Origin: Escherichia phage Lindwurm
DNA length: 64,000 nt
Sequence record: NC_134264.1
Reading direction: 5' to 3' (one strand)
The translations under genes were made by a program, and so were the position numbers. How positions within the stretch are numbered: position 1 is the stretch's first letter; each line of letters starts with the position of its first letter. This document shows positions 2,543 to 24,042 of the stretch, one piece after another. The notes beneath the pieces are model-generated. The model did no database searches. It was not told the DNA's origin and saw nothing but the letters and a program-made list of their open reading frames with translations.

Positions 2543-3338
2543 AAGGTCTACCCTCTAAATGAGCTTCTACACGAGCAATAAAATCAGGATCACTGAAAGC
2601 ATCTACCGCACCTTTACTCCAGTAAGGGATACCGCGTTCTTCCAGCTGGTACATCTCACTACGAGTCATACCTTGATAGCTCGGTTCCGCCGCTAGGGCA
2701 CTATCATAGTAGTTAACAACCATTAGCTTGGCAGCAGTCAAATTAAGAACAGGAAATAATTCCCAGTAGAAGTTAATTACTTGGTTAGAGCAACCAACCA
2801 CAACGATCATATCTTGACTGGTAATACCATCAAAAACATTGTACATTTCTGCGTACGCTGGAGCATGCTCCCCAAAAAAGATTACATTAGGTTTAACCCA
2901 TTTATAATCGTCTGGATCAATAGAATTGTACCCTACATCAATAATCCGTTTATTGCTACTATTGTAGCTATCAGCTACAACAACCTCTTTTAAATATCCG
3001 TGAATGTGCAGAATGTCACTATGTGGAACGCCAGCACGCTCAATAAGGTCATCAACGTTGGTAGTCAAGTTTACTACTTGGCCTGGATATTGTTTATACC
3101 ATTCACCAATACGCAAATGCGCAAGATTGGGTTCAACAGTTTTTAGCTCTTCACGACGCTTGTTGTAAAACATATGGGTTTTATGATAAAAATTACCACG
3201 AAAGGCATGAATATTACATACCTCTTCTAGATCATAATCATCCCACAATGCTTTACCGCTAGCAGTATCAGTACGAAAAGCTCGTACACCACTTTCAACA
3301 CTCAAACCTGCACCACTAATAATAATTAATCTACGCAT
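2523..3338 (-). CDS. Sir2-family (sirtuin-like) NAD-dependent enzyme
   Basis: GAGLSVESGVRAFR, TTNVDDLIERAG, HIHG, PNVIFFGE and VVVGCS blocks match sirtuin core; no CxxC zinc ribbon. Confidence 0.7.
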   Translation of the reverse strand: MRRLIIISGAGLSVESGVRAFRTDTASGKALWDDYDLEEVCNIHAFRGNFYHKTHMFYNKRREELKTVEPNLAHLRIGEWYKQYPGQVVNLTTNVDDLIERAGVPHSDILHIHGYLKEVVVADSYNSSNKRIIDVGYNSIDPDDYKWVKPNVIFFGEHAPAYAEMYNVFDGITSQDMIVVVGCSNQVINFYWELFPVLNLTAAKLMVVNYYDSALAAEPSYQGMTRSEMYQLEERGIPYWSKGAVDAFSDPDFIARVEAHLEGRPYVSGNK

Positions 3339-3552
3339 TTTTCACCTGTTCTCTGAAGTTTTGCCCAATACTGTCTAATAGCTCAGCTAATTCTTTATTG
3401 CCTTTCTCCATTAAGGTATTAGCAATAACTTCTAGCATAGTAGCACAGGATTCAACACCATCCTTATAGCCAGTTTCCCACTGCTGCATTAATGCGTTTT
3501 CCAAAGCGTCGTTTAAACCCTTATCTGGTAGCATCGGCTTCGAGAATGCCAT
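3331..3552 (-). CDS. hypothetical protein
   Basis: 73-aa ORF in minus-strand operon, overlapping neighbours. Confidence 0.4.
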   Translation of the reverse strand: MAFSKPMLPDKGLNDALENALMQQWETGYKDGVESCATMLEVIANTLMEKGNKELAELLDSIGQNFREQVKNA

Positions 3553-3745
3553 AAAGTTTCTCCTCTAGTTCCATAACACGATTTTCATAAGAGGCACGCA
3601 ACTTTTCAATTGCCAGCGCACGCACTGTAACCTCATTAGAATTAATAGCTAATTGGGCCAGATCTTCTGTTTCCATACGTCCGTTGTAAATTAAGCGATA
3701 TTTAAGGTGTTTCACATTCTTAGTCATTATTAAACTCCACTGCAA
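3521..3745 (-). CDS. hypothetical protein
   Basis: 74-aa ORF in minus-strand operon. Confidence 0.4.
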   Translation of the reverse strand: MQWSLIMTKNVKHLKYRLIYNGRMETEDLAQLAINSNEVTVRALAIEKLRASYENRVMELEEKLYGILEADATR

Positions 3746-4100
3746 CTGTTTCTAGGTCTTCATCAGAAAAATTAGAGTATACATCTTTAAGGTATTGTTT
3801 AATGTCTTCAGTAATATCTTCGTATCCCTCAGGAATACGTTGGTATACTTTTAGTACTCTATTATAAACAAATTCAATATCATACTTTATTTCACCCTCA
3901 TCCTCGTCAAACAAGCAATCTGAGTTATACGGTGATACATCTAGATTTGTTTCTACCCAATCACCAATAATTGATGGATATCCAATACCCTCTAGATGGG
4001 AATAATCTCCAGTAGATGCAAAAATAGCTTCTCTAAGATCGTCTACGCCAAGATGGAAACCACCACATGTAGACTCAACTATATAGGGCTTTAATTCCAT
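3720..4100 (-). CDS. hypothetical acidic protein
   Basis: 126-aa ORF immediately downstream of nrdD; no radical-SAM CxxxCxxC so not NrdG. Confidence 0.45.
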   Translation of the reverse strand: MELKPYIVESTCGGFHLGVDDLREAIFASTGDYSHLEGIGYPSIIGDWVETNLDVSPYNSDCLFDEDEGEIKYDIEFVYNRVLKVYQRIPEGYEDITEDIKQYLKDVYSNFSDEDLETVAVEFNND

Positions 4101-4199
4101 ACCTTTCTCCTCTCAAATTTATAAATCTATTATATATAAATTTTTGGCTGAAAGCAAATAAAATAAAAGCCAGGTCGACTAGCAACCCGGCTGATTAGC

Positions 4200-6074
4200 T
4201 TATTTAGCTCGAATATCCTGATGTTTCACTCTGCCCATCACCTCGTGCTGTTTACCGGGGTTAAATGGACGAGCACCCGGATTTCCAAGATACCCACAAA
4301 CTCGACGAGTTACTTCAAGAGTTTCGGGGTCATGATTACCACAGATAGGGCACTTAAATCCATCTTCGGATGCTATTGTTTCACCTAAGAATCCACATTT
4401 ACCACAAGAATCCACCGGAGTATTAATACCGAAGTAATGAACCTTACTAGCAGCATAATTAATAACCCATTCCAATGCATCTGGGAATCGTTTCATATCC
4501 GGTAATTCTACATAGGAAATACACCCACCAGAAGCAATCGGAGTAAAGTTAGATTCATAATCAAATTTGACGTTAGGAGCAACTTTACGTTCCACATCAA
4601 GGTGGTGAGAGTTAGTGTAGTATCCTTTGGACAGAATATCTTCATGCTCCGGGAAATATTCACGGTCTAGACGACAAAAACGGTCACATAGGGATTCTGA
4701 TGGTGTAGCATACAGGCTATAACCTAACTTAGTCTCTTCCTTCTTTTGATCGACCCTATCTCGCATGTACTGCAATACACGCTGAACAAACTTGATGCAG
4801 GTCTCGGACATTGTATCTACATCTTTGCCAAACATGAACTGTAGCATTTCATGGCAACCAATATACCCTAGAGATACAGAAGCACGGTTATAGAAATGAT
4901 CGAATACATATTCATCAGGCCCCAAGCGTAACCCAAAGGCTCCTGACATATAGAGGATGGGTGCAGCTTTAGCTTGAATGTATTTTAAGCGATCAACTCT
5001 CCACTCCAACGCTTTTAATGCTGTATCCACACGTAGCTCAAGCAAATCAAAGAATAGGTCAATATTTCCCTCAGCTTCGATAGCAATTCTAGGCAAGTTT
5101 ACAGAAACAACACCTAAGTTATTACGACCGGCAGTTTCACCATCTTCTGTAGCAGCTAGGAATGAACGACAGCCCATAGAAACTTTATAGTCTCCAGTAA
5201 CTTCTACAACCTTGTCATAACTGATATAATCTGGATACATACGTTCAGCAGTACATTTCATAGCTAATTTCTTGATGTCATAATTAACATCTCCTGGTTT
5301 CATATTTACGCCATCACGAAGTACAAATACCAGTTTCGGGAAGATAGCTGTACGTTTATTGATACCTAAACCATCCATGCGTACTTTCAGTATTGCCCTC
5401 TGTACTAGACGTGCTTCCCAAGAAGTTCCTAGACCAAAACCAAAGGTAATAAATGGACTCTGACCATTAGAGTTGAACATGGTATTGATTTCATATTCTA
5501 AACCCTGACAAGCGTCATAGACTTCTTTTTCAGTCATCTCCGTAGCCATTACGGATGCTTTGGCTTCATCCTTAGTCCAACGTTTTGCAAACGCATGATT
5601 TTTATCATAGGATTTACGAACATAAGGGGCTAATACTTCATCAAGGCGATCTACAGAAGTACCACCATACTGATGGGAGCTAACCTGAGTGATAATCTGA
5701 GCAGTAATAGCCGCCGCAGTAGTAATAGAGTTTGGAGTGCTAATTTCAGCATTACCAACCTTCATACCATTCTTCAACATATCTTCCAGAGCTACCAGAC
5801 AACAGTTAGTCATGCCTAATGCAGCATAATCAGCATCATGGAAATGAATATCCCCAATCATATGAGCATTTCGAATCTGAATTGGCATTTCTTCTAGAAT
5901 CAGATACTTACTCAATTCACCTGCAAGCATATCCCTTTGTGTAGGGAAACGTTCTGAGGGTTTATTGGCATTATTAAATAGCAGCTCTTCATCTGCTGAC
6001 CCTTCGATAATCTCTTTGCAGTTTCTAATTAACGCCTGCATTTCTTTATATTTTAGTTCTTCGTTACGATTCAT
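4200..6074 (-). CDS. nrdD: anaerobic ribonucleoside-triphosphate reductase (class III)
   Basis: 624 aa; C-terminal glycyl-radical motif RVCGYLG and CxxC zinc site (CGKC...CPIC). Confidence 0.9.
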   Translation of the reverse strand: MNRNEELKYKEMQALIRNCKEIIEGSADEELLFNNANKPSERFPTQRDMLAGELSKYLILEEMPIQIRNAHMIGDIHFHDADYAALGMTNCCLVALEDMLKNGMKVGNAEISTPNSITTAAAITAQIITQVSSHQYGGTSVDRLDEVLAPYVRKSYDKNHAFAKRWTKDEAKASVMATEMTEKEVYDACQGLEYEINTMFNSNGQSPFITFGFGLGTSWEARLVQRAILKVRMDGLGINKRTAIFPKLVFVLRDGVNMKPGDVNYDIKKLAMKCTAERMYPDYISYDKVVEVTGDYKVSMGCRSFLAATEDGETAGRNNLGVVSVNLPRIAIEAEGNIDLFFDLLELRVDTALKALEWRVDRLKYIQAKAAPILYMSGAFGLRLGPDEYVFDHFYNRASVSLGYIGCHEMLQFMFGKDVDTMSETCIKFVQRVLQYMRDRVDQKKEETKLGYSLYATPSESLCDRFCRLDREYFPEHEDILSKGYYTNSHHLDVERKVAPNVKFDYESNFTPIASGGCISYVELPDMKRFPDALEWVINYAASKVHYFGINTPVDSCGKCGFLGETIASEDGFKCPICGNHDPETLEVTRRVCGYLGNPGARPFNPGKQHEVMGRVKHQDIRAK

Positions 6075-6103
6075 TACACCCTCCTTCTCTAACTAAGACT
6101 ACT

Positions 6104-6132
6104 ATTATAACTCATTCGAGGGCGGATGTCAA
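6104..6132 (-). promoter_or_regulatory. consensus sigma70 promoter for nrdD operon
   Basis: Minus strand reads TTGACA-17 bp-TATAAT upstream of nrdD start. Confidence 0.6.
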
Positions 6133-6183
6133 CAATATTTTACTATAAAGTTCTGTAACATGATCTGAGTCAAAAAATTTTAT

Positions 6184-6212
6184 TTGCCAACCTCTATTAA
6201 AAATTGTATAAT
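6184..6212 (+). promoter_or_regulatory. T5-type early promoter
   Basis: TTGCCA-17 bp-TATAAT with A/T-rich upstream tract. Confidence 0.5.
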
Positions 6213-6324
6213 CACGCACTCGTGTATGCGATATAAAATGATTATCTAGTATCACACATCTCCCGTTAAAAGCAAGCAAATTTTTTATTTAAATGCAATA
6301 TCATAGGCTTATTTAAAATTGTAG

Positions 6325-6353
6325 TTGCTTTTTACTGTATATATTGGTATAAT
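6325..6353 (+). promoter_or_regulatory. T5-type early promoter upstream of phoH
   Basis: TTGCTT-17 bp-TATAAT. Confidence 0.6.
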
Positions 6354-6426
6354 ATATTTGTAAGTTGATAAACAAGATCTTTTTGTTGATCCTCTGTTAG
6401 CGAAGTACACTATAGGAGTGTTATTT

Positions 6427-7179
6427 ATGGGAAAAGCACGTCAAAAAAGAGAGAACCGCAATGGTTCAAGAAAGTGTGGCAACAAATATGAGAATAACGT
6501 AATTCAGGCTGATTTTTCTAATGATTACGCTAACCCAGTTGCTAAATCCCTAGTAGGTAAAAACCGCGAGCAAAAATCATATATCAATATGATCAAGAAC
6601 AACACAGTGACTGTGGGTATCGGTGAGCCAGGTACTGGTAAAACCTTTATTCCGTCCGTTCTTGCAGCTCAGGAACTCGTAGACATTCACTCAGATATTG
6701 AGCAAGTGATCCTCGTACGTCCTAATGAACCTCTAGGTAAGTCTCTTGGTATGCTTCCTGGTGATCTAGCGGAAAAGCTAGAGCCTTGGTTGGAGCCAAT
6801 AGCTGATGGTATGAAATGGGCCATCGGCGATCATGCATATAAGGGATATGTCGAACGTCAGAAAATTAAATTTTTGGCTATCGAACATGCTCGTGGCAGA
6901 ACTTTCAACAACTCCTATGTAATTGTCGATGAAGCTCAGAATATTTCCGTTGAGGCAATGATTTGTCTCCTAACTCGTGTAGGACAAGACTGCCGTTTAA
7001 TTATCTGCGGAGATATAGCTCAGAAAGACATTAAAGGTGACTCAGGTCTAGCACTCCTTATGGAAGTCTATGAGAAATACGAAAATGCCCCATTCTCAAT
7101 GATCGAATTGATTGATAACGTTCGTTCTGTTGAGTCTAAAGCATTCTATGATATTTTTAAAGACATGGGGAAGGTGTAA
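6427..7179 (+). CDS. phoH: PhoH-like ATPase
   Basis: Walker A GEPGTGKT; PhoH-like length; AGGAG 8 nt upstream of ATG 6427. Confidence 0.8.
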   Translation: MGKARQKRENRNGSRKCGNKYENNVIQADFSNDYANPVAKSLVGKNREQKSYINMIKNNTVTVGIGEPGTGKTFIPSVLAAQELVDIHSDIEQVILVRPNEPLGKSLGMLPGDLAEKLEPWLEPIADGMKWAIGDHAYKGYVERQKIKFLAIEHARGRTFNNSYVIVDEAQNISVEAMICLLTRVGQDCRLIICGDIAQKDIKGDSGLALLMEVYEKYENAPFSMIELIDNVRSVESKAFYDIFKDMGKV

Positions 7180-20560: not shown

Positions 20561-21508
20561 ATGTTTAATACTAAAAATATGAAAGAACTGACTTCTGAGC
20601 AGAAAGTAATTCGTACTATTAAACGTTGGGGTATTGGTGCTGTAGTTGGTTTAGCAGGCTTGATTCTAGCTTTTAATTCGTATACCATTGTTTCTGATGG
20701 TACGGTTAAAACCCAGACTTTCCTGGGTAAAGTAGACCCTAATCCAGTATTACCTGGTTTCCATCTTGTAAACCCGTTTGCATCTTTCGATACTTTTAGT
20801 ACAAAAGATATTGCTGTAAAATTAGATAAACTTCAGGTTCCTAGTCAGGATAAGTTTAAATCCACTGTTGACCTGACTGTTATGTTGCAGTTTGATGGTT
20901 CTAAGGCACCGATTAACCGTATTAACGCAGGTACTCAGGATCAGGCACTAGACAAGTATGTAACTGAAAAATTACTGTCTACTATTCGTGAGTTTGGTAA
21001 GTCTGTACCTAAAGCACAAGATTTGTTTGATGCTAAAATTCAGGCTCAATTGCAAACTGCAATTCAACAAGAAGTTGAAGAGTATGCACGCCCATATGGT
21101 TATACAGTTAAGCAGGTATTCCTTCAGGATATTACTTTGCCACCGGTAATCATGGAACAGGTACAGAATACCAAAGTTCGTGAAGAGCAAGTTAATGCTG
21201 CGAAAGCTGAACTGGCTCGTGTTGAACAAGAAGCACAGCAGAAGGTTAAACAAGCAGAAGCAGATCGTGAAGCTCGCAACAACCAAGCTATTGCTAATGA
21301 ACGTGACGCAGATGCTAAACTGTACGCAGCTAAGAAAGAAGCTGAAGCTAACGCCGCATTGCAACGTACCATTACTCCTGAGATGATTCGTTGGAAACAA
21401 CTGGAAGTTGAGATGATTCGTGCTCAGAAATATCAAGGTGGTGTACCTCAGACTGTGGTAGGTACTGGCTACGATGGTCAAATGATCATGGATATGCGTA
21501 ACAAATAA
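20561..21508 (+). CDS. SPFH/band-7 (prohibitin/HflK-like) membrane protein
   Basis: N-terminal TM helix, SPFH-like core and long Ala/Gln/Glu-rich coiled coil. Confidence 0.6.
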   Translation: MFNTKNMKELTSEQKVIRTIKRWGIGAVVGLAGLILAFNSYTIVSDGTVKTQTFLGKVDPNPVLPGFHLVNPFASFDTFSTKDIAVKLDKLQVPSQDKFKSTVDLTVMLQFDGSKAPINRINAGTQDQALDKYVTEKLLSTIREFGKSVPKAQDLFDAKIQAQLQTAIQQEVEEYARPYGYTVKQVFLQDITLPPVIMEQVQNTKVREEQVNAAKAELARVEQEAQQKVKQAEADREARNNQAIANERDADAKLYAAKKEAEANAALQRTITPEMIRWKQLEVEMIRAQKYQGGVPQTVVGTGYDGQMIMDMRNK

Positions 21509-21531
21509 TAGTTACACGTAATCTTCGAACC

Positions 21532-21568
21532 AAGCCCGCGTTTCCTCCGAGAGCGCAGGCTTTTCTGT
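21532..21568 (+). terminator. rho-independent terminator
   Basis: AGCCCGCG...CGCAGGCT stem followed by TTTTCTG. Confidence 0.5.
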
Positions 21569-21582
21569 ATTTAAGGCAAAAT

Positions 21583-21622
21583 AAAAAGCCCCTAAGTCTT
21601 TCGACTAGGGGCTTTATTGTTT
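21583..21622. terminator. bidirectional terminator
   Basis: Perfect 9-bp stem AGCCCCTAG/CTAGGGGCT flanked by A-run and T-run. Confidence 0.65.
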
Positions 21623-21628
21623 GGTTCC

Positions 21629-21823
21629 TTAGAACCATATACTCTTGTTACAGCAACCACCCATACGGGAGGCCAATCTTGACTGAAAATCTACTCTAGG
21701 GGGCAGGATAAGAGTAGGCTTAAAGGCAAACGGATTGAACGCCGGTATTTGCGTAAACATTGCTGGAGAGCAACAACGTGCTACAGGCATTGGGCAGCAC
21801 GAAACAGGTTTTCTGCAACACAT
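21629..21823 (-). CDS. small Cys-rich protein
   Basis: 64 aa with CC pairs (MCCRKPVSCC...ARCC...GGCCNK); strong AAGGAG RBS. Confidence 0.5.
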   Translation of the reverse strand: MCCRKPVSCCPMPVARCCSPAMFTQIPAFNPFAFKPTLILPPRVDFQSRLASRMGGCCNKSIWF

Positions 21824-21832
21824 AATTTCTCC

Positions 21833-22249
21833 TTAGGAGTTATTACCACCATTTTGAGCTTTTGCAATTTGGCTTTGGCAGAAGCTATTAAACTTACCCA
21901 TAAGTGATACAAGCTGTTTCCCATCCTCTGTCTTTGCGAAGTCTTCGAAAAGGGCTAGTACTGCCTGTCCTTCCGCGGAAACCTGTGGTTGTTGGGTTTG
22001 TTGCTGAACTTGCTGCTGAGGCACCTGTTGCTGCATTTGTTGGGGCATTTGCGACTGCCCGCTCATTTGCTGCATCATTTGCATAGGACTCACACTTCCA
22101 GGGTTTTGCTGGAGTTGTTGCTGCATCTGTTGCGCTTCTGCTAAACGCTGTTGCAATTGTTGTAAGTAGGGGTTATCCAGACCCGGAATGGGCTGCTGGG
22201 AGCCCATACTTTGATTAAGTCCGTTATTTACAAAACCATATTTACTCAT
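21833..22249 (-). CDS. Gln-rich low-complexity protein
   Basis: 138 aa with long Q-rich tracts. Confidence 0.5.
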   Translation of the reverse strand: MSKYGFVNNGLNQSMGSQQPIPGLDNPYLQQLQQRLAEAQQMQQQLQQNPGSVSPMQMMQQMSGQSQMPQQMQQQVPQQQVQQQTQQPQVSAEGQAVLALFEDFAKTEDGKQLVSLMGKFNSFCQSQIAKAQNGGNNS

Positions 22250-22270
22250 AATGGGCTCCTCCCCTTAATA

Positions 22271-23257
22271 TTAAGCCGGCAGTTTAGCCTGCAGACCAGC
22301 CAGAGTCTGAGTGATAGTACCAAGACTTAAAGCGATTTGATTAATTACCTGACCGTTAGCACCGCTACCCGCAGCGATTGCTTCACGTAGGCGACACGCA
22401 TCTAACTCATCCTGGATACGCGCAGTAGTTACACCGGCGATCGCAGTCTGAAGTTCACAGCAACATTCAGCAATCTGACGTTCCAGAGAGTTCTGGTTAG
22501 CACACATCTGAGCCTGAACAGCGGCAAACTGGTTATTAGTTTGTAAAGTCTGCTGGAAAGCGATCTGTGCAGAATCAAACTTATCTTGTGCACGAGCTAT
22601 CTGATTAGCTGCGAAAGATTGATCAATCTGGCGAGAAAGATCGAACTGGCCCTGAATAACGTTGCGAGTTTCCTGGCAGATCTGATTAGACAGATTAGCA
22701 CCTGTACCATAGATCGTAGTTAGTACAGACTGAGTATCACGGCTCTGGTTTTGGGATGTCTGGCTAAAACCATTGTTAACTGCGCTTAAAACAGCTCCAG
22801 TGCCCTGGTTAGCTTCTGTACGAGTAGTGTTAATAGCTGCTAGAATACTAGCGGTATCTTGGTTCTGAAGTACTGCATCAACTGCGGTACCTTCACCAAC
22901 TACACCACGCCCACCGAATCCACCGAAACCACCGAATCCGCCTGTTAATAGAGCACCGATTAGGATAGCTCCGAATAGTCCCATACCTTCACCACCGAAA
23001 GCACCTGCGTTTGCTGGGTAACCACCCAGTAGGCCAGGAAAGCCACTAGTGAATACGTTTACTGGTTCTTGCATTTTATGTTTTCCATATTTATGACAAT
23101 GTTCATCATCGTCATCTTCTTCATCGTCGTGTTCGCGATGTTTCTCTTCGTAGGCTCTGACCTTCTCCCACTTTTTCTTATCTGATTCCTCGTGACGGTG
23201 CAGTTCTGCTGCAACGCTAGCGACGGTCTCAGGACTCTTAGCTACTTCTTCTGTCAT
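22271..23257 (-). CDS. acidic / Gly-rich / Gln-Asn-rich protein
   Basis: Start MTEEVAK at 23257 with AGGAGG RBS; DDEEDDDDE tract, GGFGGFGGFGGRG tract, Q/N-rich C-terminus. Confidence 0.55.
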   Translation of the reverse strand: MTEEVAKSPETVASVAAELHRHEESDKKKWEKVRAYEEKHREHDDEEDDDDEHCHKYGKHKMQEPVNVFTSGFPGLLGGYPANAGAFGGEGMGLFGAILIGALLTGGFGGFGGFGGRGVVGEGTAVDAVLQNQDTASILAAINTTRTEANQGTGAVLSAVNNGFSQTSQNQSRDTQSVLTTIYGTGANLSNQICQETRNVIQGQFDLSRQIDQSFAANQIARAQDKFDSAQIAFQQTLQTNNQFAAVQAQMCANQNSLERQIAECCCELQTAIAGVTTARIQDELDACRLREAIAAGSGANGQVINQIALSLGTITQTLAGLQAKLPA

Positions 23258-23464
23258 TTTTTGACACCTCCTAGTATATAGAAAATGTGTGTCTCTTTGA
23301 TCACTCATCCATAACATATACTTTACACTACCCCAGCGAAAATGTCAAGGGGTCTTTAAAAATTGCCCCCGGATTTTTAGTGGGGTCACAAATTTTGGTC
23401 CTCACTACTTATCTGCTACCCTTAAATGCCCTATGATTTTCCTCTAAAAAGTTAAAAAATTTAA

Positions 23465-23493
23465 TTGCTTGAATGCTATATTCTCTGTATAAT
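23465..23493 (+). promoter_or_regulatory. T5-type early promoter
   Basis: TTGCTT-17 bp-TATAAT. Confidence 0.65.
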
Positions 23494-23523
23494 ATATCTA
23501 TAAATTTGAGAGAGGAACCAAAT

Positions 23524-24042
23524 ATGAATGTTGATGAGCTAACACAGCACCTCTTATCTAGAGGATTTGATACAGATAAATATCATTGCTGGTTAAGTAC
23601 GGAAGGATGGCTAACAGTCCCGTTGTATGACTTCTCTGGGATGTTGAGGGGCTATCAAACTTATAATCCTTCTGCTCCAAAAGGTCATGGTAAGTGCCCC
23701 TTTGAAGCTAAATACTTTACTTATTCTACTACCCAGTGTGTATGGGGACTAGAAACTCTCAATGGAGATGAAAAAGTAGTATTGATTGCTGAATCTGTAT
23801 TTAAGGCAGTTGCGTTACATAACGCTGGTTATCCAGCCCTAGCAATGTTGGGTTCTTCTCCAGGAAAAGCGTTATTAAAGCAACTGAAATTACTACCTTT
23901 TAAATTGATAGCTGTCGGGGACAATGATCCTGCGGGTGAAAAATTTGCTAGAAAATTAAACGGCTTTGTTTCTCCTGTAGATGTAGATGAGATGTCTACC
24001 GAAAACTTGAAAAATTTTCTTGCTATGAAGCTAAATTTCTAA
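23524..24042 (+). CDS. TOPRIM-domain protein (DnaG-primase-like)
   Basis: VVLIAESVFKAVALHNAGYPALAMLGSS and LIAVGDNDPAGEKFARKL match TOPRIM E...DxD motifs. Confidence 0.5.
   Translation: MNVDELTQHLLSRGFDTDKYHCWLSTEGWLTVPLYDFSGMLRGYQTYNPSAPKGHGKCPFEAKYFTYSTTQCVWGLETLNGDEKVVLIAESVFKAVALHNAGYPALAMLGSSPGKALLKQLKLLPFKLIAVGDNDPAGEKFARKLNGFVSPVDVDEMSTENLKNFLAMKLNF

What the first reader, a model, noticed from the sequence alone, without database searches (positions are those of the whole stretch)
21629..23257. Minus-strand island of three low-complexity proteins inside a plus-strand region
Between a bidirectional terminator (21583-21622) and the promoter at 23465, three co-oriented minus-strand genes encode a 328-aa protein (acidic tract, GGFGGFGGFGG repeat, Gln/Asn-rich C-terminal half), a 138-aa poly-Gln protein and a 64-aa protein with four Cys-Cys pairs. 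Such composition is unusual for phage enzymes and suggests a structural, condensate-forming or metal-binding role.
Basis: seen in the sequence. Interest (0 to 1): 0.5.

Follow-up and report, generated by a model that had tools for sequence, protein, structure and literature searches.

The report
Dispensable T5 membrane coiled-coil operon
The three minus-strand genes are real, conserved but dispensable genes of T5-like phages (T5.077-T5.079); the largest encodes a membrane-anchored, very long single helix with an invariant Cys-Cys-Cys motif, a protein type found in many phages, and what the three genes do is still unknown.

Summary
The window is a T5-like phage, and the three ORFs are orthologues of T5.077, T5.078 and T5.079. 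They form their own unit: a sigma-70-type promoter (T5 "P12"), three strong ribosome-binding sites and a bidirectional terminator. BF23 and T5 records have annotated this since about 2004, always as "hypothetical".

All three ORFs are under purifying selection (dN/dS 0.13-0.30). The same gene order recurs in divergent T5-likes and in Pseudomonas phage KPP23.

The unit is dispensable:
- CRISPRi-ART scored all three genes "Not Fit".
- The viable mutant T5 st0 lacks them.
- About half of T5-like genomes carry one shared deletion allele that keeps both ends of the 64-aa ORF.

The unit lies in the tRNA-rich "anti-defence" region, next to the anti-retron gene Rad.

The 328-aa protein is not merely low-complexity. 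It has a His/acid-rich head, a glycine-zipper membrane segment and one ~190-residue helix with an invariant AECCCE motif. About 100 distant relatives share this motif; every contig I examined was phage-like or prophage-like. No Pfam, PDB, PADLOC or NCBIfam match exists.

Best guess (0.35): a membrane-tethered, thiol- or metal-locked coiled-coil complex serving phage-host conflict. A virion role and a spanin role are disfavoured. Metal binding is untested.

The parts
23320..23348 (-). Sigma-70-type promoter of the island (TTGACA-17-TAAAGT), equivalent to T5/BF23 promoter P12
   Evidence: Consensus scan. T5 and BF23 records annotate promoter P12 at the same position relative to T5.077 / ORF 326aa. 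The 23261-23410 stretch is 94-96% identical among island-bearing relatives, more conserved than the coding sequence.
22271..23257 (-). Gene A (328 aa), orthologue of T5.077 / BF23 ORF 326aa / PHROG 8119. It has a His/acid-rich N-terminal region with a confident helix (residues 12-41), a glycine-zipper hydrophobic segment, and a single long helix (residues 135-325).
   Evidence: ORF and AGGAGG Shine-Dalgarno sequence. PHROG 8119, E = 6e-204. dN/dS 0.16. AlphaFold2 with a 59-sequence alignment gave pLDDT 74.5 overall and 83-96 over residues 140-270.
22910..22990 (-). Codons for residues 90-116 of A (GMGLFGAILIGALLTGGFGGFGGFGG): the glycine-zipper membrane anchor plus the Gly-Phe linker
   Evidence: Maximum Kyte-Doolittle (19-residue window) is 1.72 at residue 93, and this is the only hydrophobic segment. 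G91, G93, L99, G101, L103, G107, G110 and G112 are invariant in 15 homologues. Among relatives with such a segment ahead of the CCC motif, the C-terminal flank is the more positive in 25 of 31.
22457..22465 (-). Codons for the invariant Cys265-Cys266-Cys267 of A (motif QIAECCCELQ)
   Evidence: Invariant in 15 homologues. Nearly invariant (at least 90%) in a 53-sequence alignment. CCC is present in 93 of 117 superfamily members, with consensus N.NALSRQ[LI]AECCCE[LI]KE.I.
21833..22249 (-). Gene B (138 aa), orthologue of T5.078 / PHROG 7894. It has a conserved N-terminal helix motif (PYLQQLQQRLAEAQ), a variable Gln/Pro/Met linker, and a conserved C-terminal domain (EGQAVLALFE.FAKTEDGKQLV..GKFN.FCQS).
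   Evidence: dN/dS 0.13. Homologues occur only in T5-like and KPP23-like modules.
21629..21823 (-). Gene C (64 aa), orthologue of T5.079 / BF23 ORF 64aa. A small Pro- and Cys-rich protein that always starts with MCC and carries 2-4 vicinal Cys pairs.
   Evidence: ORF with TAAGGAG overlapping the stop codon of B. An ORF starting MCC directly follows B in L009, L010, L011 and KPP23. dN/dS 0.30, with unusually low dS.
21583..21622 (.). Bidirectional intrinsic terminator shared by the island and the convergent SPFH gene
   Evidence: Folding gave -25.9 and -26.7 kcal/mol with z = -5.6 and -5.0, and U-runs on both strands. Annotated as ter1 or 'efficient bidirectional terminator' in BF23 and T5.
21658..23409 (.). 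The span missing in the common island-less allele. It comprises two deletions, 21658-21774 and 21785-23409, joined at GCAAC and TGCTAC microhomologies.
   Evidence: DT57C, S116 and bobsandoy have identical junctions that keep the 3' end and an N-terminal piece of ORF C. The microhomology coordinates were read from the sequence.

Best explanation
The island is a self-contained accessory transcription unit: its own sigma-70-type promoter, three translationally well-signalled genes, and a bidirectional terminator. It lies in the dispensable tRNA-rich / anti-defence region of T5-like phages.

Proposed workings of the products:
- Protein A is tethered to the inner membrane by a glycine-zipper helix. 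It projects a ~190-residue (roughly 28 nm) alpha-helix, most likely into the cytoplasm. This helix oligomerises as a coiled coil.
- The invariant CCC motif places thiols in or next to the core of that coiled coil. There they lock the oligomer or bind a soft metal.
- B (conserved helical ends, variable Gln/Pro/Met spacer) and C (MCC... with vicinal Cys pairs) are clade-specific partners of A.

The complex is not needed for replication, assembly or lysis. I infer that it is a conditionally useful host-interaction device acting at the membrane, either in counter-defence or in exclusion of competitors. That would explain why an intact allele and a deletion allele coexist.

Shown here: the gene anatomy, conservation, dispensability, genomic context and family distribution.
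Inferred: the topology, oligomerisation, the A-B-C interaction, the role of the cysteines, and the biological role.
For: Anatomy and reality of the genes.

Membrane anchor and long helix.

Cytoplasmic orientation of the helix:
- 57 of 117 relatives have a TM-like segment by my hydrophobicity threshold.
- Among the 31 with such a segment ahead of the CCC motif, the C-terminal flank is the more positive in 25 and the N-terminal flank in 1.
- Relatives occur in phages of Firmicutes and Bacteroidetes as well as Proteobacteria.

A, B and C as a module:
- The same order recurs in relatives at 36-46% identity and in Pseudomonas phage KPP23.
- B is never found outside this module.
- 11 of 93 A-like proteins carry a CC or CxC motif in their last 30 residues, including C-like CC-Pro tails such as ...QCCTPAQIRVP.

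Dispensability:
- T5.077, T5.078 and T5.079 are 'Not Fit' in CRISPRi-ART (PMC11879866 supplement).
- The T5 st0 deletion mutant lacks the island.
- One deletion allele is shared by DT57C, S116 and bobsandoy.
- 216 of 417 T5-like records carry the island.

Context:
- The island lies within the span deleted in T5 st0. An approximately 8-kb region of the same kind is spontaneously lost in T5n and SP15m (10.1101/2023.03.15.532788 and PMC11555353). I did not confirm that those two deletions cover the island.
- That region holds tRNA-Tyr (anti-retron-Eco7) and ORF75/Rad. Rad is the 189-aa neighbour at 23473-24042.
Against: - No experiment links these genes to any defence or exclusion phenotype.
- In the fragment screen of Azam et al., only fragments F6 and F8 (plus F7 in the preprint) rescued phages from retrons. 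If the island was on another fragment, it had no anti-retron activity.
- There is no PADLOC hit.
- Guilt by association is weak in a region that is mostly tRNAs, homing endonucleases and small ORFs.
- In Firmicutes-type phage contigs the A-like gene sits inside the head-morphogenesis block and is co-oriented with late genes. That fits an assembly or virion role at least as well.
- The topology rests on the positive-inside rule with very few charges. The 90-residue charged N-terminus of the T5-type protein would then have to cross the membrane or stay on the same side.
- The AlphaFold2 model is a monomer (pTM 0.30), so oligomerisation is assumed, not shown.
Confidence: 0.35

Rival explanations
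1. Soft-metal or thiol-redox module. The His/acid-rich head of A captures divalent or thiophilic metal ions. The glycine-zipper oligomer and the CCC ring pass or hold them. The small protein C, with vicinal Cys pairs, acts as a thiolate sink or chaperone. The result changes metal or redox state in the infected cell.
For: - His-rich acidic tracts lie N-terminal to the anchor in T5-likes (for example HHYHHHHHEH in P0013) and recur in distant members P0034 and P0035.
- The CCC motif is invariant.
- C has 2-4 vicinal Cys pairs.
- Some relatives end in HHHHCC or CC-Pro tails.
- From general knowledge: vicinal Cys pairs handle Hg(II) in MerT, MerF and MerA, and His plus Cys-Cys tracts bind Ni in Helicobacter Hpn.
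Against: - There is no sequence or profile similarity to any metal-binding family.
- Only the MCC start and one further CC pair are conserved in C.
- The His tract is variable and is absent from the relatives at 36-46% identity.
- The Met-rich linker of B is not conserved.
- No metal-related genes lie nearby.
Confidence: 0.12
2. Membrane scaffold for phage development. A anchors and organises phage DNA replication, transcription or early assembly at the inner membrane, in the manner of phi29 p16.7. It improves efficiency without being essential.
For: - Location in the early region, with a membrane anchor plus a long coiled coil.
- Non-essential, like p16.7 (general knowledge).
- A-like genes lie next to terminase, portal or head genes in other phages.
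Against: - No DNA-binding or other recognisable domain is present.
- CRISPRi-ART saw no fitness cost.
- Half of natural T5-likes lack the island.
Confidence: 0.12
3. Virion-associated or ejection protein resembling the phiX174 H pilot protein. A would be a glycine-zipper transmembrane helix plus a long Gln/Asn-lined coiled-coil tube that helps DNA cross the envelope, or a head fibre.
For: - The architecture parallels protein H: an N-terminal glycine-zipper transmembrane helix, a long coiled coil, and 328 aa. This comes from my knowledge of Sun et al. 2014 and was not tested by alignment.
- Hydrophobic periodicity of about 3.6-3.7 in residues 135-246 hints at hendecads, but the signal is weak.
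- A-like genes lie between Phage_min_cap2 and the scaffold gene in Firmicutes-type phages, next to a BclA_C-like protein.
Against: - In T5 the unit is on the opposite strand to its annotated neighbours, in the early region, behind a sigma-70-type promoter.
- It is dispensable.
- KPP23 virion mass spectrometry lists nine proteins, none of them KPP23_072-074.
- There is no sequence match to any solved structure. Foldseek gives only generic long helices at E > 1.
Confidence: 0.08
4. Lysis-related envelope device: a spanin-like pair or a lysis-timing factor. A would be an inner-membrane coiled coil and C a Pro-rich partner, disulfide-linked in the periplasm.
For: - A transmembrane segment plus coiled coil plus conserved Cys recalls Rz.
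- C is small and Pro-rich, like Rz1.
- One relative lies about 2 kb downstream of a holin and an endolysin.
Against: - C has no signal peptide or lipobox; it starts MCCRKP.
- T5-like phages already have inner- and outer-membrane spanins in their lysis cassette (PMC4342426 and PMC6256483).
- The island is dispensable.
- The family occurs in phages of Gram-positive hosts, and about half of its members lack a hydrophobic anchor.
- Flank charges favour a cytoplasmic C-terminal domain.
Confidence: 0.04

Closest known systems
T5.077 / T5.078 / T5.079 of phage T5 (NC_005859), and ORF 326aa / 138aa / 64aa of BF23 (AJ604530)
   Same: Direct orthologues at about 90% DNA identity, with the same promoter P12, ribosome-binding sites, bidirectional terminator and flanking genes. 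They belong to PHROG 8119 and PHROG 7894.
   Different: Nothing substantive differs. The length of the N-terminal His/acid tract and residues ~150-200 of A vary. Every record calls them hypothetical, apart from spurious 'cAMP-dependent protein kinase catalytic subunit' labels on B.
Accessory cargo of the T5 tRNA-rich region / 'anti-defense island' (tRNA-Tyr, ORF75/Rad; Azam et al., PMC11555353 and 10.1101/2023.03.15.532788)
   Same: Same dispensable region, which is spontaneously deletable. The island is adjacent to Rad, has a sigma-70-type promoter of its own in the early region, and is variably present.
   Different: No anti-defence activity has been shown for these three genes. They are membrane-associated and form a three-protein unit, unlike the small soluble proteins or tRNAs characterised there.
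phiX174 DNA pilot protein H
   Same: Resemblance in architecture only: an N-terminal glycine-zipper membrane helix followed by a very long Gln/Asn-rich helix that must oligomerise (my knowledge of the H structure).
   Different: No detectable homology. H is an essential virion protein, whereas A is dispensable and, in KPP23, was not detected in virions. A has the CCC motif and a charged N-terminal domain.
phi29 p16.7 (membrane-anchored coiled-coil organiser of phage DNA replication)
   Same: An early, non-essential protein with a single membrane anchor and a coiled coil. This comparison rests on general knowledge.
   Different: p16.7 is about 130 aa with a defined DNA-binding C-terminal domain. 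A is 328 aa and has no such domain, and there is no homology.
Lambda Rz/Rz1 two-component spanin
   Same: A membrane-anchored coiled coil with conserved Cys, plus a small Pro-rich partner.
   Different: There is no lipobox in C. The predicted orientation is the opposite. The unit is not in the lysis cassette, is dispensable, and T5-likes have separate spanins.

Membership tests
PHROG 8119 / PHROG 7894 (T5.077-like and T5.078-like phage proteins of unknown function) | Full-length profile match | tested here: met
   E = 5.9e-204 over residues 1-328 and E = 1.5e-80 over residues 1-138. The 64-aa protein matches no PHROG and is listed as a singleton in the CRISPRi-ART re-annotation.
'CCC' coiled-coil phage protein superfamily (defined here; overlaps PHROGs 8119, 9288 and 16490) | A long helical Gln/Asn/Ser/Thr/Ala-rich region containing [LI]A[ED]CCC[ED][LI]K, often preceded by a glycine-zipper hydrophobic segment | tested here: met
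   A profile search found 100 proteins at E <= 1e-3. Of 117 members, 93 have CCC. PHROGs 9288 and 16490 are hit by 16 and 13 of 53 members. There is no Pfam family.
Two-component spanin (Rz/Rz1 type) | The outer-membrane subunit is a lipoprotein with a signal peptide and lipobox Cys | tested here: not met
   C starts MCCRKPVSCC and has no hydrophobic signal sequence. Its maximum Kyte-Doolittle (19-residue window) is 0.85.
Two-component spanin (Rz/Rz1 type) | Needed for lysis, and normally the only spanin set in the genome | tested here: not met
   The genes are dispensable. Separate inner- and outer-membrane spanins are reported in T5-like lysis cassettes.
Two-component spanin (Rz/Rz1 type) | Inner-membrane subunit with N-in / C-out topology and a periplasmic coiled coil | tested here: inconclusive
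   Flank charges favour C-in in 25 of 31 relatives, and anchor-less relatives exist.
phiX174 H-type DNA pilot protein | Sequence or fold homology to protein H | tested here: not met
   No PDB sequence hit at E <= 1. Foldseek against PDB gave only vimentin-like long helices at E > 1.
phiX174 H-type DNA pilot protein | Packaged virion component | tested here: inconclusive
   KPP23 virion mass spectrometry does not list KPP23_072-074. AKFV33 proteomics identified only four major proteins. No deep T5 virion proteome could be consulted.
Anti-defence gene (cargo of the T5 tRNA-rich / anti-defence island) | Located in the accessory region that carries proven counter-defence genes | tested here: met
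   The island lies within the span deleted in T5 st0 (T5.068..T5.081) and next to Rad/ORF75.
Anti-defence gene (cargo of the T5 tRNA-rich / anti-defence island) | Neutralises a defined defence system | not testable with these tools
   Published rescue from retrons maps to tRNA-Tyr, ORF71-73 and ORF75, not to these genes. No homology to known anti-defence or defence proteins was found, including none in PADLOC.
Moron-like autonomous accessory unit / superinfection-exclusion gene | Own promoter and terminator, opposite orientation to neighbours, present or absent among close relatives | tested here: met
   (signals). (presence or absence with a clean junction).
Moron-like autonomous accessory unit / superinfection-exclusion gene | Blocks infection by a second phage | not testable with these tools
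   No data found.
Metal-binding Cys/His proteins (metallothionein, Hpn or Mer-type) | Homology, or a conserved Cys/His spacing typical of those families | tested here: not met
   No Pfam or NCBIfam hits. The 328-aa and 138-aa proteins have no PDB sequence hit; the 64-aa protein was not searched against PDB. In C, only the MCC start and one further CC pair are conserved. The His tract is variable.
Intrinsically disordered / condensate-forming low-complexity proteins | Predominantly disordered, with no stable fold | tested here: not met
   A has a confident continuous helix at residues 135-325 and another at 12-41. B has conserved terminal segments, and only its central linker varies in length and sequence. 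No disorder predictor was available.

The most novel reading that the evidence does not exclude
A, with its partners B and C, is the founding, T5-accessible example of a widespread and so far unrecognised class of phage proteins. The class is defined by a glycine-zipper membrane tether carrying a ~28-nm coiled coil, whose core holds a ring of cysteines that binds a soft metal or forms a redox-sensitive lock. In this reading the assembly works at the cytoplasmic face of the membrane as a new kind of counter-defence or exclusion device. One possible target is a membrane-based defence machine. The intact and deleted alleles would be kept as a balanced polymorphism in T5-like phages.
Probability: 0.12. 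Interest if true: 0.75.

Novelty: new member of a known kind. Interest (0 to 1): 0.4.

Why it matters
T5 is a classic model phage, yet these three conserved genes have been called "hypothetical" for twenty years.

This work adds the following points:
- They form an autonomous, selected, but dispensable operon.
- They lie in the same deletable region that recently yielded anti-retron functions.
- Natural T5-like populations carry both an intact allele and one specific deletion allele. This pattern is expected for conditionally useful host-interaction genes.
- The largest protein links T5 to about a hundred unannotated phage proteins from Proteobacteria, Firmicutes and Bacteroidetes hosts. All share an invariant Cys-Cys-Cys motif in a very long helix.

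Isogenic T5 strains with and without the region already exist (wild type versus st0, T5j versus T5n, SP15 versus SP15m). The function of a large dark-matter family is therefore directly testable in a tractable system.

If the genes turn out to do nothing measurable, the finding is an ordinary piece of phage accessory DNA.

Tried and rejected
- Pfam, NCBIfam, PADLOC and PDB-sequence searches of the island proteins (the 64-aa protein was not searched against PDB) found nothing beyond chance low-complexity hits such as RIFIN, TFIIA and apolipoprotein.
- The first AlphaFold2 run, with a shallow 15-sequence alignment, gave pLDDT 48 and was unusable.
- The second run (59 sequences, pLDDT 74.5) gave a single long helix. 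Foldseek against PDB then returned only vimentin-type helices at E > 1. I ran no further fold searches, because a lone helix cannot discriminate between folds.
- I tested whether the Gln-rich 147-aa and 83-aa proteins that precede A-like genes in Firmicutes-type phage contigs are homologues of B. hhalign gave probabilities of 0.6% and 1.8%, so this was rejected; the resemblance is compositional only.
- An HMM of B against all ORFs of the fetched loci hit only T5-like and KPP23-like modules.
- A fused Cys-rich tail as a general feature of A-like proteins: only 11 of 93 have CC or CxC in the last 30 residues, so this is weak Rosetta-stone evidence.
- Heptad/hendecad analysis: periodicity is weak (power about 1), so I make no claim about oligomer type.
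- An Rfam scan of 21300-23700 gave only sub-threshold hits on the terminator hairpin.
- The search for related loci with the broad alignment failed because no stretch was conserved enough. With the close alignment it returned only T5-likes.
- No plasmid carries A.
- Literature: no paper in the library names T5.077-079 in its main text. HIDEN-SEQ does not cover T5-likes. The PNAS 2026 T5 paper's supplements do not list these genes. AKFV33 virion proteomics was too shallow to be informative.
- The spanin idea was rejected.
Full report
**Identity of the window and check of the observation**

The region 21400-23700 is 98% identical to Salmonella phages S130 and S131, and matches several hundred T5-like phage records (Demerecviridae, Markadamsvirinae).

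The three minus-strand ORFs are present exactly as described:
- 22271-23257, 328 aa
- 21833-22249, 138 aa
- 21629-21823, 64 aa

Each has a strong Shine-Dalgarno sequence: AGGAGG, GGAGGAG and TAAGGAG. The last overlaps the stop codon of the 138-aa gene.

The compositional statements hold:
- The 328-aa protein has an acidic tract, GGFGGFGGFGG and 7 Cys.
- The 138-aa protein is 28% Gln.
- The 64-aa protein has four Cys-Cys pairs.

The hairpin at 21583-21622 folds at about -26 kcal/mol on both strands, with z-scores of -5.6 and -5.0 and U-runs on both sides.

Every annotated neighbour is on the plus strand.

One correction is needed. The promoter near 23465 drives the plus-strand neighbour. The island's own promoter-like site is TTGACA-17-TAAAGT at 23348-23320 on the minus strand.

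**Already annotated, never explained**

In phage T5 (NC_005859) the orthologues are T5.077, T5.078 and T5.079. They are flanked by "promoter P12" and by an [quoted passage not shown]. One of T5's major nick sites lies just beyond.

The BF23 tRNA-region record (AJ604530) annotates ORF 326aa, ORF 138aa and ORF 64aa with their ribosome-binding sites, P12 and ter1.

Every record I looked at calls them hypothetical. The exception is a recurrent and clearly spurious label on the Gln-rich protein, "cAMP-dependent protein kinase catalytic subunit".

PHROGs places the two larger proteins in families 8119 and 7894, both of unknown function. The 64-aa protein has no family.

No paper in the searchable library names these genes in its main text.

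**They are real genes and act as a module**

Across nine T5-like genomes, dN/dS is 0.16 for A (328 aa), 0.13 for B (138 aa) and 0.30 for C (64 aa).

Homologues of A at only 36-46% identity, on T5-sized metagenomic contigs, are again followed by a B homologue and then by a small ORF that begins MCC.

The same three-gene order occurs in the unrelated 63-kb Pseudomonas siphophage KPP23 and in a KPP23-like contig. There the C-terminal half of A is still 59% identical to the T5-type protein, which suggests horizontal exchange of the module.

In KPP23 the deposited ORF072 is in the wrong frame. The conserved MCC frame is L012:4981-5163.

B homologues are found only in this module.

In C, only the MCC start, one further Cys-Cys pair and a Pro/Phe-rich middle are conserved across the distant copies.

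**Anatomy of the proteins**

A has a single hydrophobic segment, GMGLFGAILIGALLTGGFGGF, with a Kyte-Doolittle value of 1.72. Its glycines are invariant.

With a 59-sequence alignment, AlphaFold2 (mean pLDDT 74.5) predicts:
- a confident helix at residues 12-41
- a low-confidence Gly-rich and hydrophobic region
- one uninterrupted helix from 135 to 325, with pLDDT 83-96 over residues 140-270

That helix is about 190 residues, or roughly 28 nm. As a monomer this is not a fold, so the protein must oligomerise as a coiled coil. This step is inferred.

Cys265-Cys267 within QIAECCCELQ are invariant.

The N-terminal 60-90 residues are acidic and His-rich, and their length varies. Some relatives carry HHYHHHHHEH.

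B has three parts:
- a conserved N-terminal helix motif (PYLQQLQQRLAEAQ)
- a Gln/Pro/Met linker that varies in length and sequence
- a conserved C-terminal segment with one invariant Cys

**A wider, unrecognised family**

A profile of A searched against 1.8 billion representative proteins found 100 hits at E <= 1e-3.

Of 117 collected members, 93 contain CCC. The consensus is N.NALSRQ[LI]AECCCE[LI]KE.I. By my hydrophobicity threshold, 57 have a TM-like segment. In 31 of the CCC-bearing members that segment precedes the motif.

All ten members looked up are unnamed metagenomic proteins.

They match no Pfam family. The only PHROG matches are the unknown-function families 8119, 9288 and 16490.

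Every context I could inspect is a phage or prophage:
- divergent from terminase and portal genes
- downstream of holin and endolysin genes
- in many gut Firmicutes-type contigs, including a Coprococcus comes isolate, inside a conserved block between the Phage_min_cap2 gene and the scaffold gene, next to a weakly BclA_C-like protein (below Pfam's threshold)

A scan of reference genomes found members in Rhodoferax, Bacilli, Lachnospiraceae, Clostridia, Bacteroidales and Alistipes assemblies.

**Likely topology**

Among the 31 members with a TM-like segment ahead of the CCC motif, the flank on the C-terminal side is the more positive in 25. The N-terminal flank is the more positive in only 1.

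Many members have no anchor and no signal peptide, and many come from hosts without a periplasm.

The most economical reading is therefore that the CCC helix is cytoplasmic. This is inference. For the T5-type protein it leaves open where the 90-residue charged N-terminus sits.

**Dispensability and population pattern**

Four lines of evidence agree:

1. In the CRISPRi-ART screen of T5, knock-down of T5.077, T5.078 and T5.079 scored "Not Fit". The authors list their function as unknown (PMC11879866, supplementary files 8 and 16).
2. The viable heat-stable deletion mutant T5 st0 (AY692264) lacks the whole island. Its deletion runs from T5.068 to T5.081, and BLAST finds no trace of the island.
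3. Azam et al. describe an approximately 8-kb region, spontaneously lost in T5n and SP15m, that they called an "Anti-Defense Island" and later the tRNA-rich region. They mapped retron evasion to tRNA-Tyr, ORF71-73 and ORF75/Rad. Rad (189 aa) corresponds to the window ORF 23473-24042, directly beside the island's promoter region.
4. Only 216 of 417 T5-like records that match the flanks carry the island.

The island-less genomes DT57C (Tequintavirus), S116 and bobsandoy (both Epseptimavirus) share an identical junction. Window 21657 joins 21775 at a GCAAC microhomology, and 21784 joins 23410 at TGCTAC. This retains the last ~30 bases and a short N-terminal piece of ORF C.

The island is therefore ancestral. 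One deletion allele has spread across two genera, presumably by recombination. Intact copies remain under purifying selection. That is the pattern expected for a conditionally useful gene set.

**What it most likely is**

I read it as an accessory, autonomously transcribed operon encoding a membrane-tethered coiled-coil assembly. A would be the tether, and B and C its clade-specific partners. The invariant cysteines would lock the oligomer or bind a thiophilic metal. The assembly would serve phage-host or phage-phage conflict at the membrane, not replication, assembly or lysis.

- Confidence in the anatomy is fairly high.
- Confidence in the biological role is low (0.35 overall), because it rests on context and population pattern only.

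**Rivals**

- *Metal or redox module (0.12).* His-rich tracts, the CCC motif and vicinal Cys pairs fit. However, there is no homology to metal-binding families, and the Cys and His features outside CCC are poorly conserved.
- *Membrane scaffold for phage development, like phi29 p16.7 (0.12).* The architecture and non-essentiality fit, but there is no DNA-binding domain and no measurable fitness cost.
- *Virion or ejection protein like phiX174 H (0.08).* The architecture and the head-module context in Firmicutes phages fit. Against it stand early-region placement, dispensability and absence from the KPP23 virion protein list.
- *Spanin or lysis device (0.04).* C has no lipobox, T5-likes have separate spanins, and the predicted orientation is wrong.

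The proteins are indeed non-enzymatic and compositionally odd. However, the key feature is a transmembrane-anchored long helix, not low complexity.

"Structural" and "condensate" roles are not supported. "Metal-binding" remains open.

**Novelty and interest**

As sequence features the genes, promoter and terminator are already known.

New here are:
- the recognition of the CCC coiled-coil superfamily
- the three-gene module shared with KPP23
- the shared deletion allele
- the link to the anti-defence region

Function remains unknown. I score interest at 0.4: a well-defined, experimentally tractable piece of phage dark matter, but not a demonstrated new mechanism.

Noticed in passing
window 23473-24042 (+): This 189-aa Toprim/'DNA primase' ORF is the orthologue of T5.076 and SP15 ORF75, named Rad (retron anti-defense) by Azam et al. 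GenBank records still call it DNA primase. It has only weak Toprim matches (Pfam E = 2e-5).
   Followed up: partly
window 21530-21560 (between the SPFH gene stop at 21508 and the terminator): A GCGC at 21553-21556, inside a small hairpin, lies where T5 and BF23 annotate a major single-strand interruption of the virion DNA, with consensus Pu-pGCGC. So the island ends beside a T5-type nick site.
   Followed up: no
window 21629-21823 compared with 22271-23257: Synonymous divergence in ORF C is far lower than in A for the same genome pairs (dS 0.05-0.2 against 0.5-0.7). ORF C plus the terminator is 90-98% identical at DNA level even in Epseptimaviruses. This points to either a recombination mosaic or an extra nucleotide-level constraint. 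It remains unexplained.
   Followed up: partly
window 22661-22810 (residues ~150-200 of A): This is the most variable stretch of the island (68-71% DNA identity against 86-98% elsewhere). It is a hypervariable segment within the long helix.
   Followed up: no
L012 (Pseudomonas phage KPP23, AB910392) 4981-5163: The deposited KPP23_072 (GTG start, 64 aa, frame of 4983-5177) is probably the wrong frame. The overlapping ORF starting MCCNQPVPQCC matches the conserved third gene of the module.
   Followed up: yes
GenBank records of T5-like phages (e.g. Sepoy_121, HMD-P5, ESCO40): The 138-aa Gln-rich protein is repeatedly annotated as 'cAMP-dependent protein kinase catalytic subunit'. It has no kinase domain (no significant Pfam match), so this is a propagated low-complexity artefact.
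   Followed up: yes
L007 (Escherichia phage EscoHU1) 1569-2099: An HNH homing endonuclease gene is inserted between the SPFH gene and the island in this phage. This is a further sign that the junction is a hotspot for mobile DNA. The 64-aa ORF is intact there but not annotated.
   Followed up: partly
L046 (Coprococcus comes MSK.16.63 prophage) 3265-7047, and the similar L017, L044, L045, L048, L053 and L055: A conserved, entirely unannotated gene block lies between the Phage_min_cap2 gene and the scaffold gene. In order it holds a Gln-rich 147-aa protein, an 83-aa Gln/Met-rich protein, the CCC protein, a 68-aa coiled coil, a weakly BclA_C-like protein (Pfam E = 2.6e-4, below threshold) and a 197-aa protein. 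It is often preceded by a small HTH protein and by a 125-aa protein with a GDCTIRALC motif.
   Followed up: partly
window 20561-21508 (+): The convergent neighbour is an SPFH/Band-7 membrane protein (Pfam E = 2e-17), orthologous to T5.080. It is annotated variously as lipoprotein, protease regulator or PHB-domain protein. It is retained in island-less phages, so it is not obligatorily linked to the island.
   Followed up: partly
window 23287-23436 (+): A 49-aa ORF annotated in one record (PP429239) overlaps the island's promoter region on the opposite strand. It has no PHROG and is probably not a gene.
   Followed up: no
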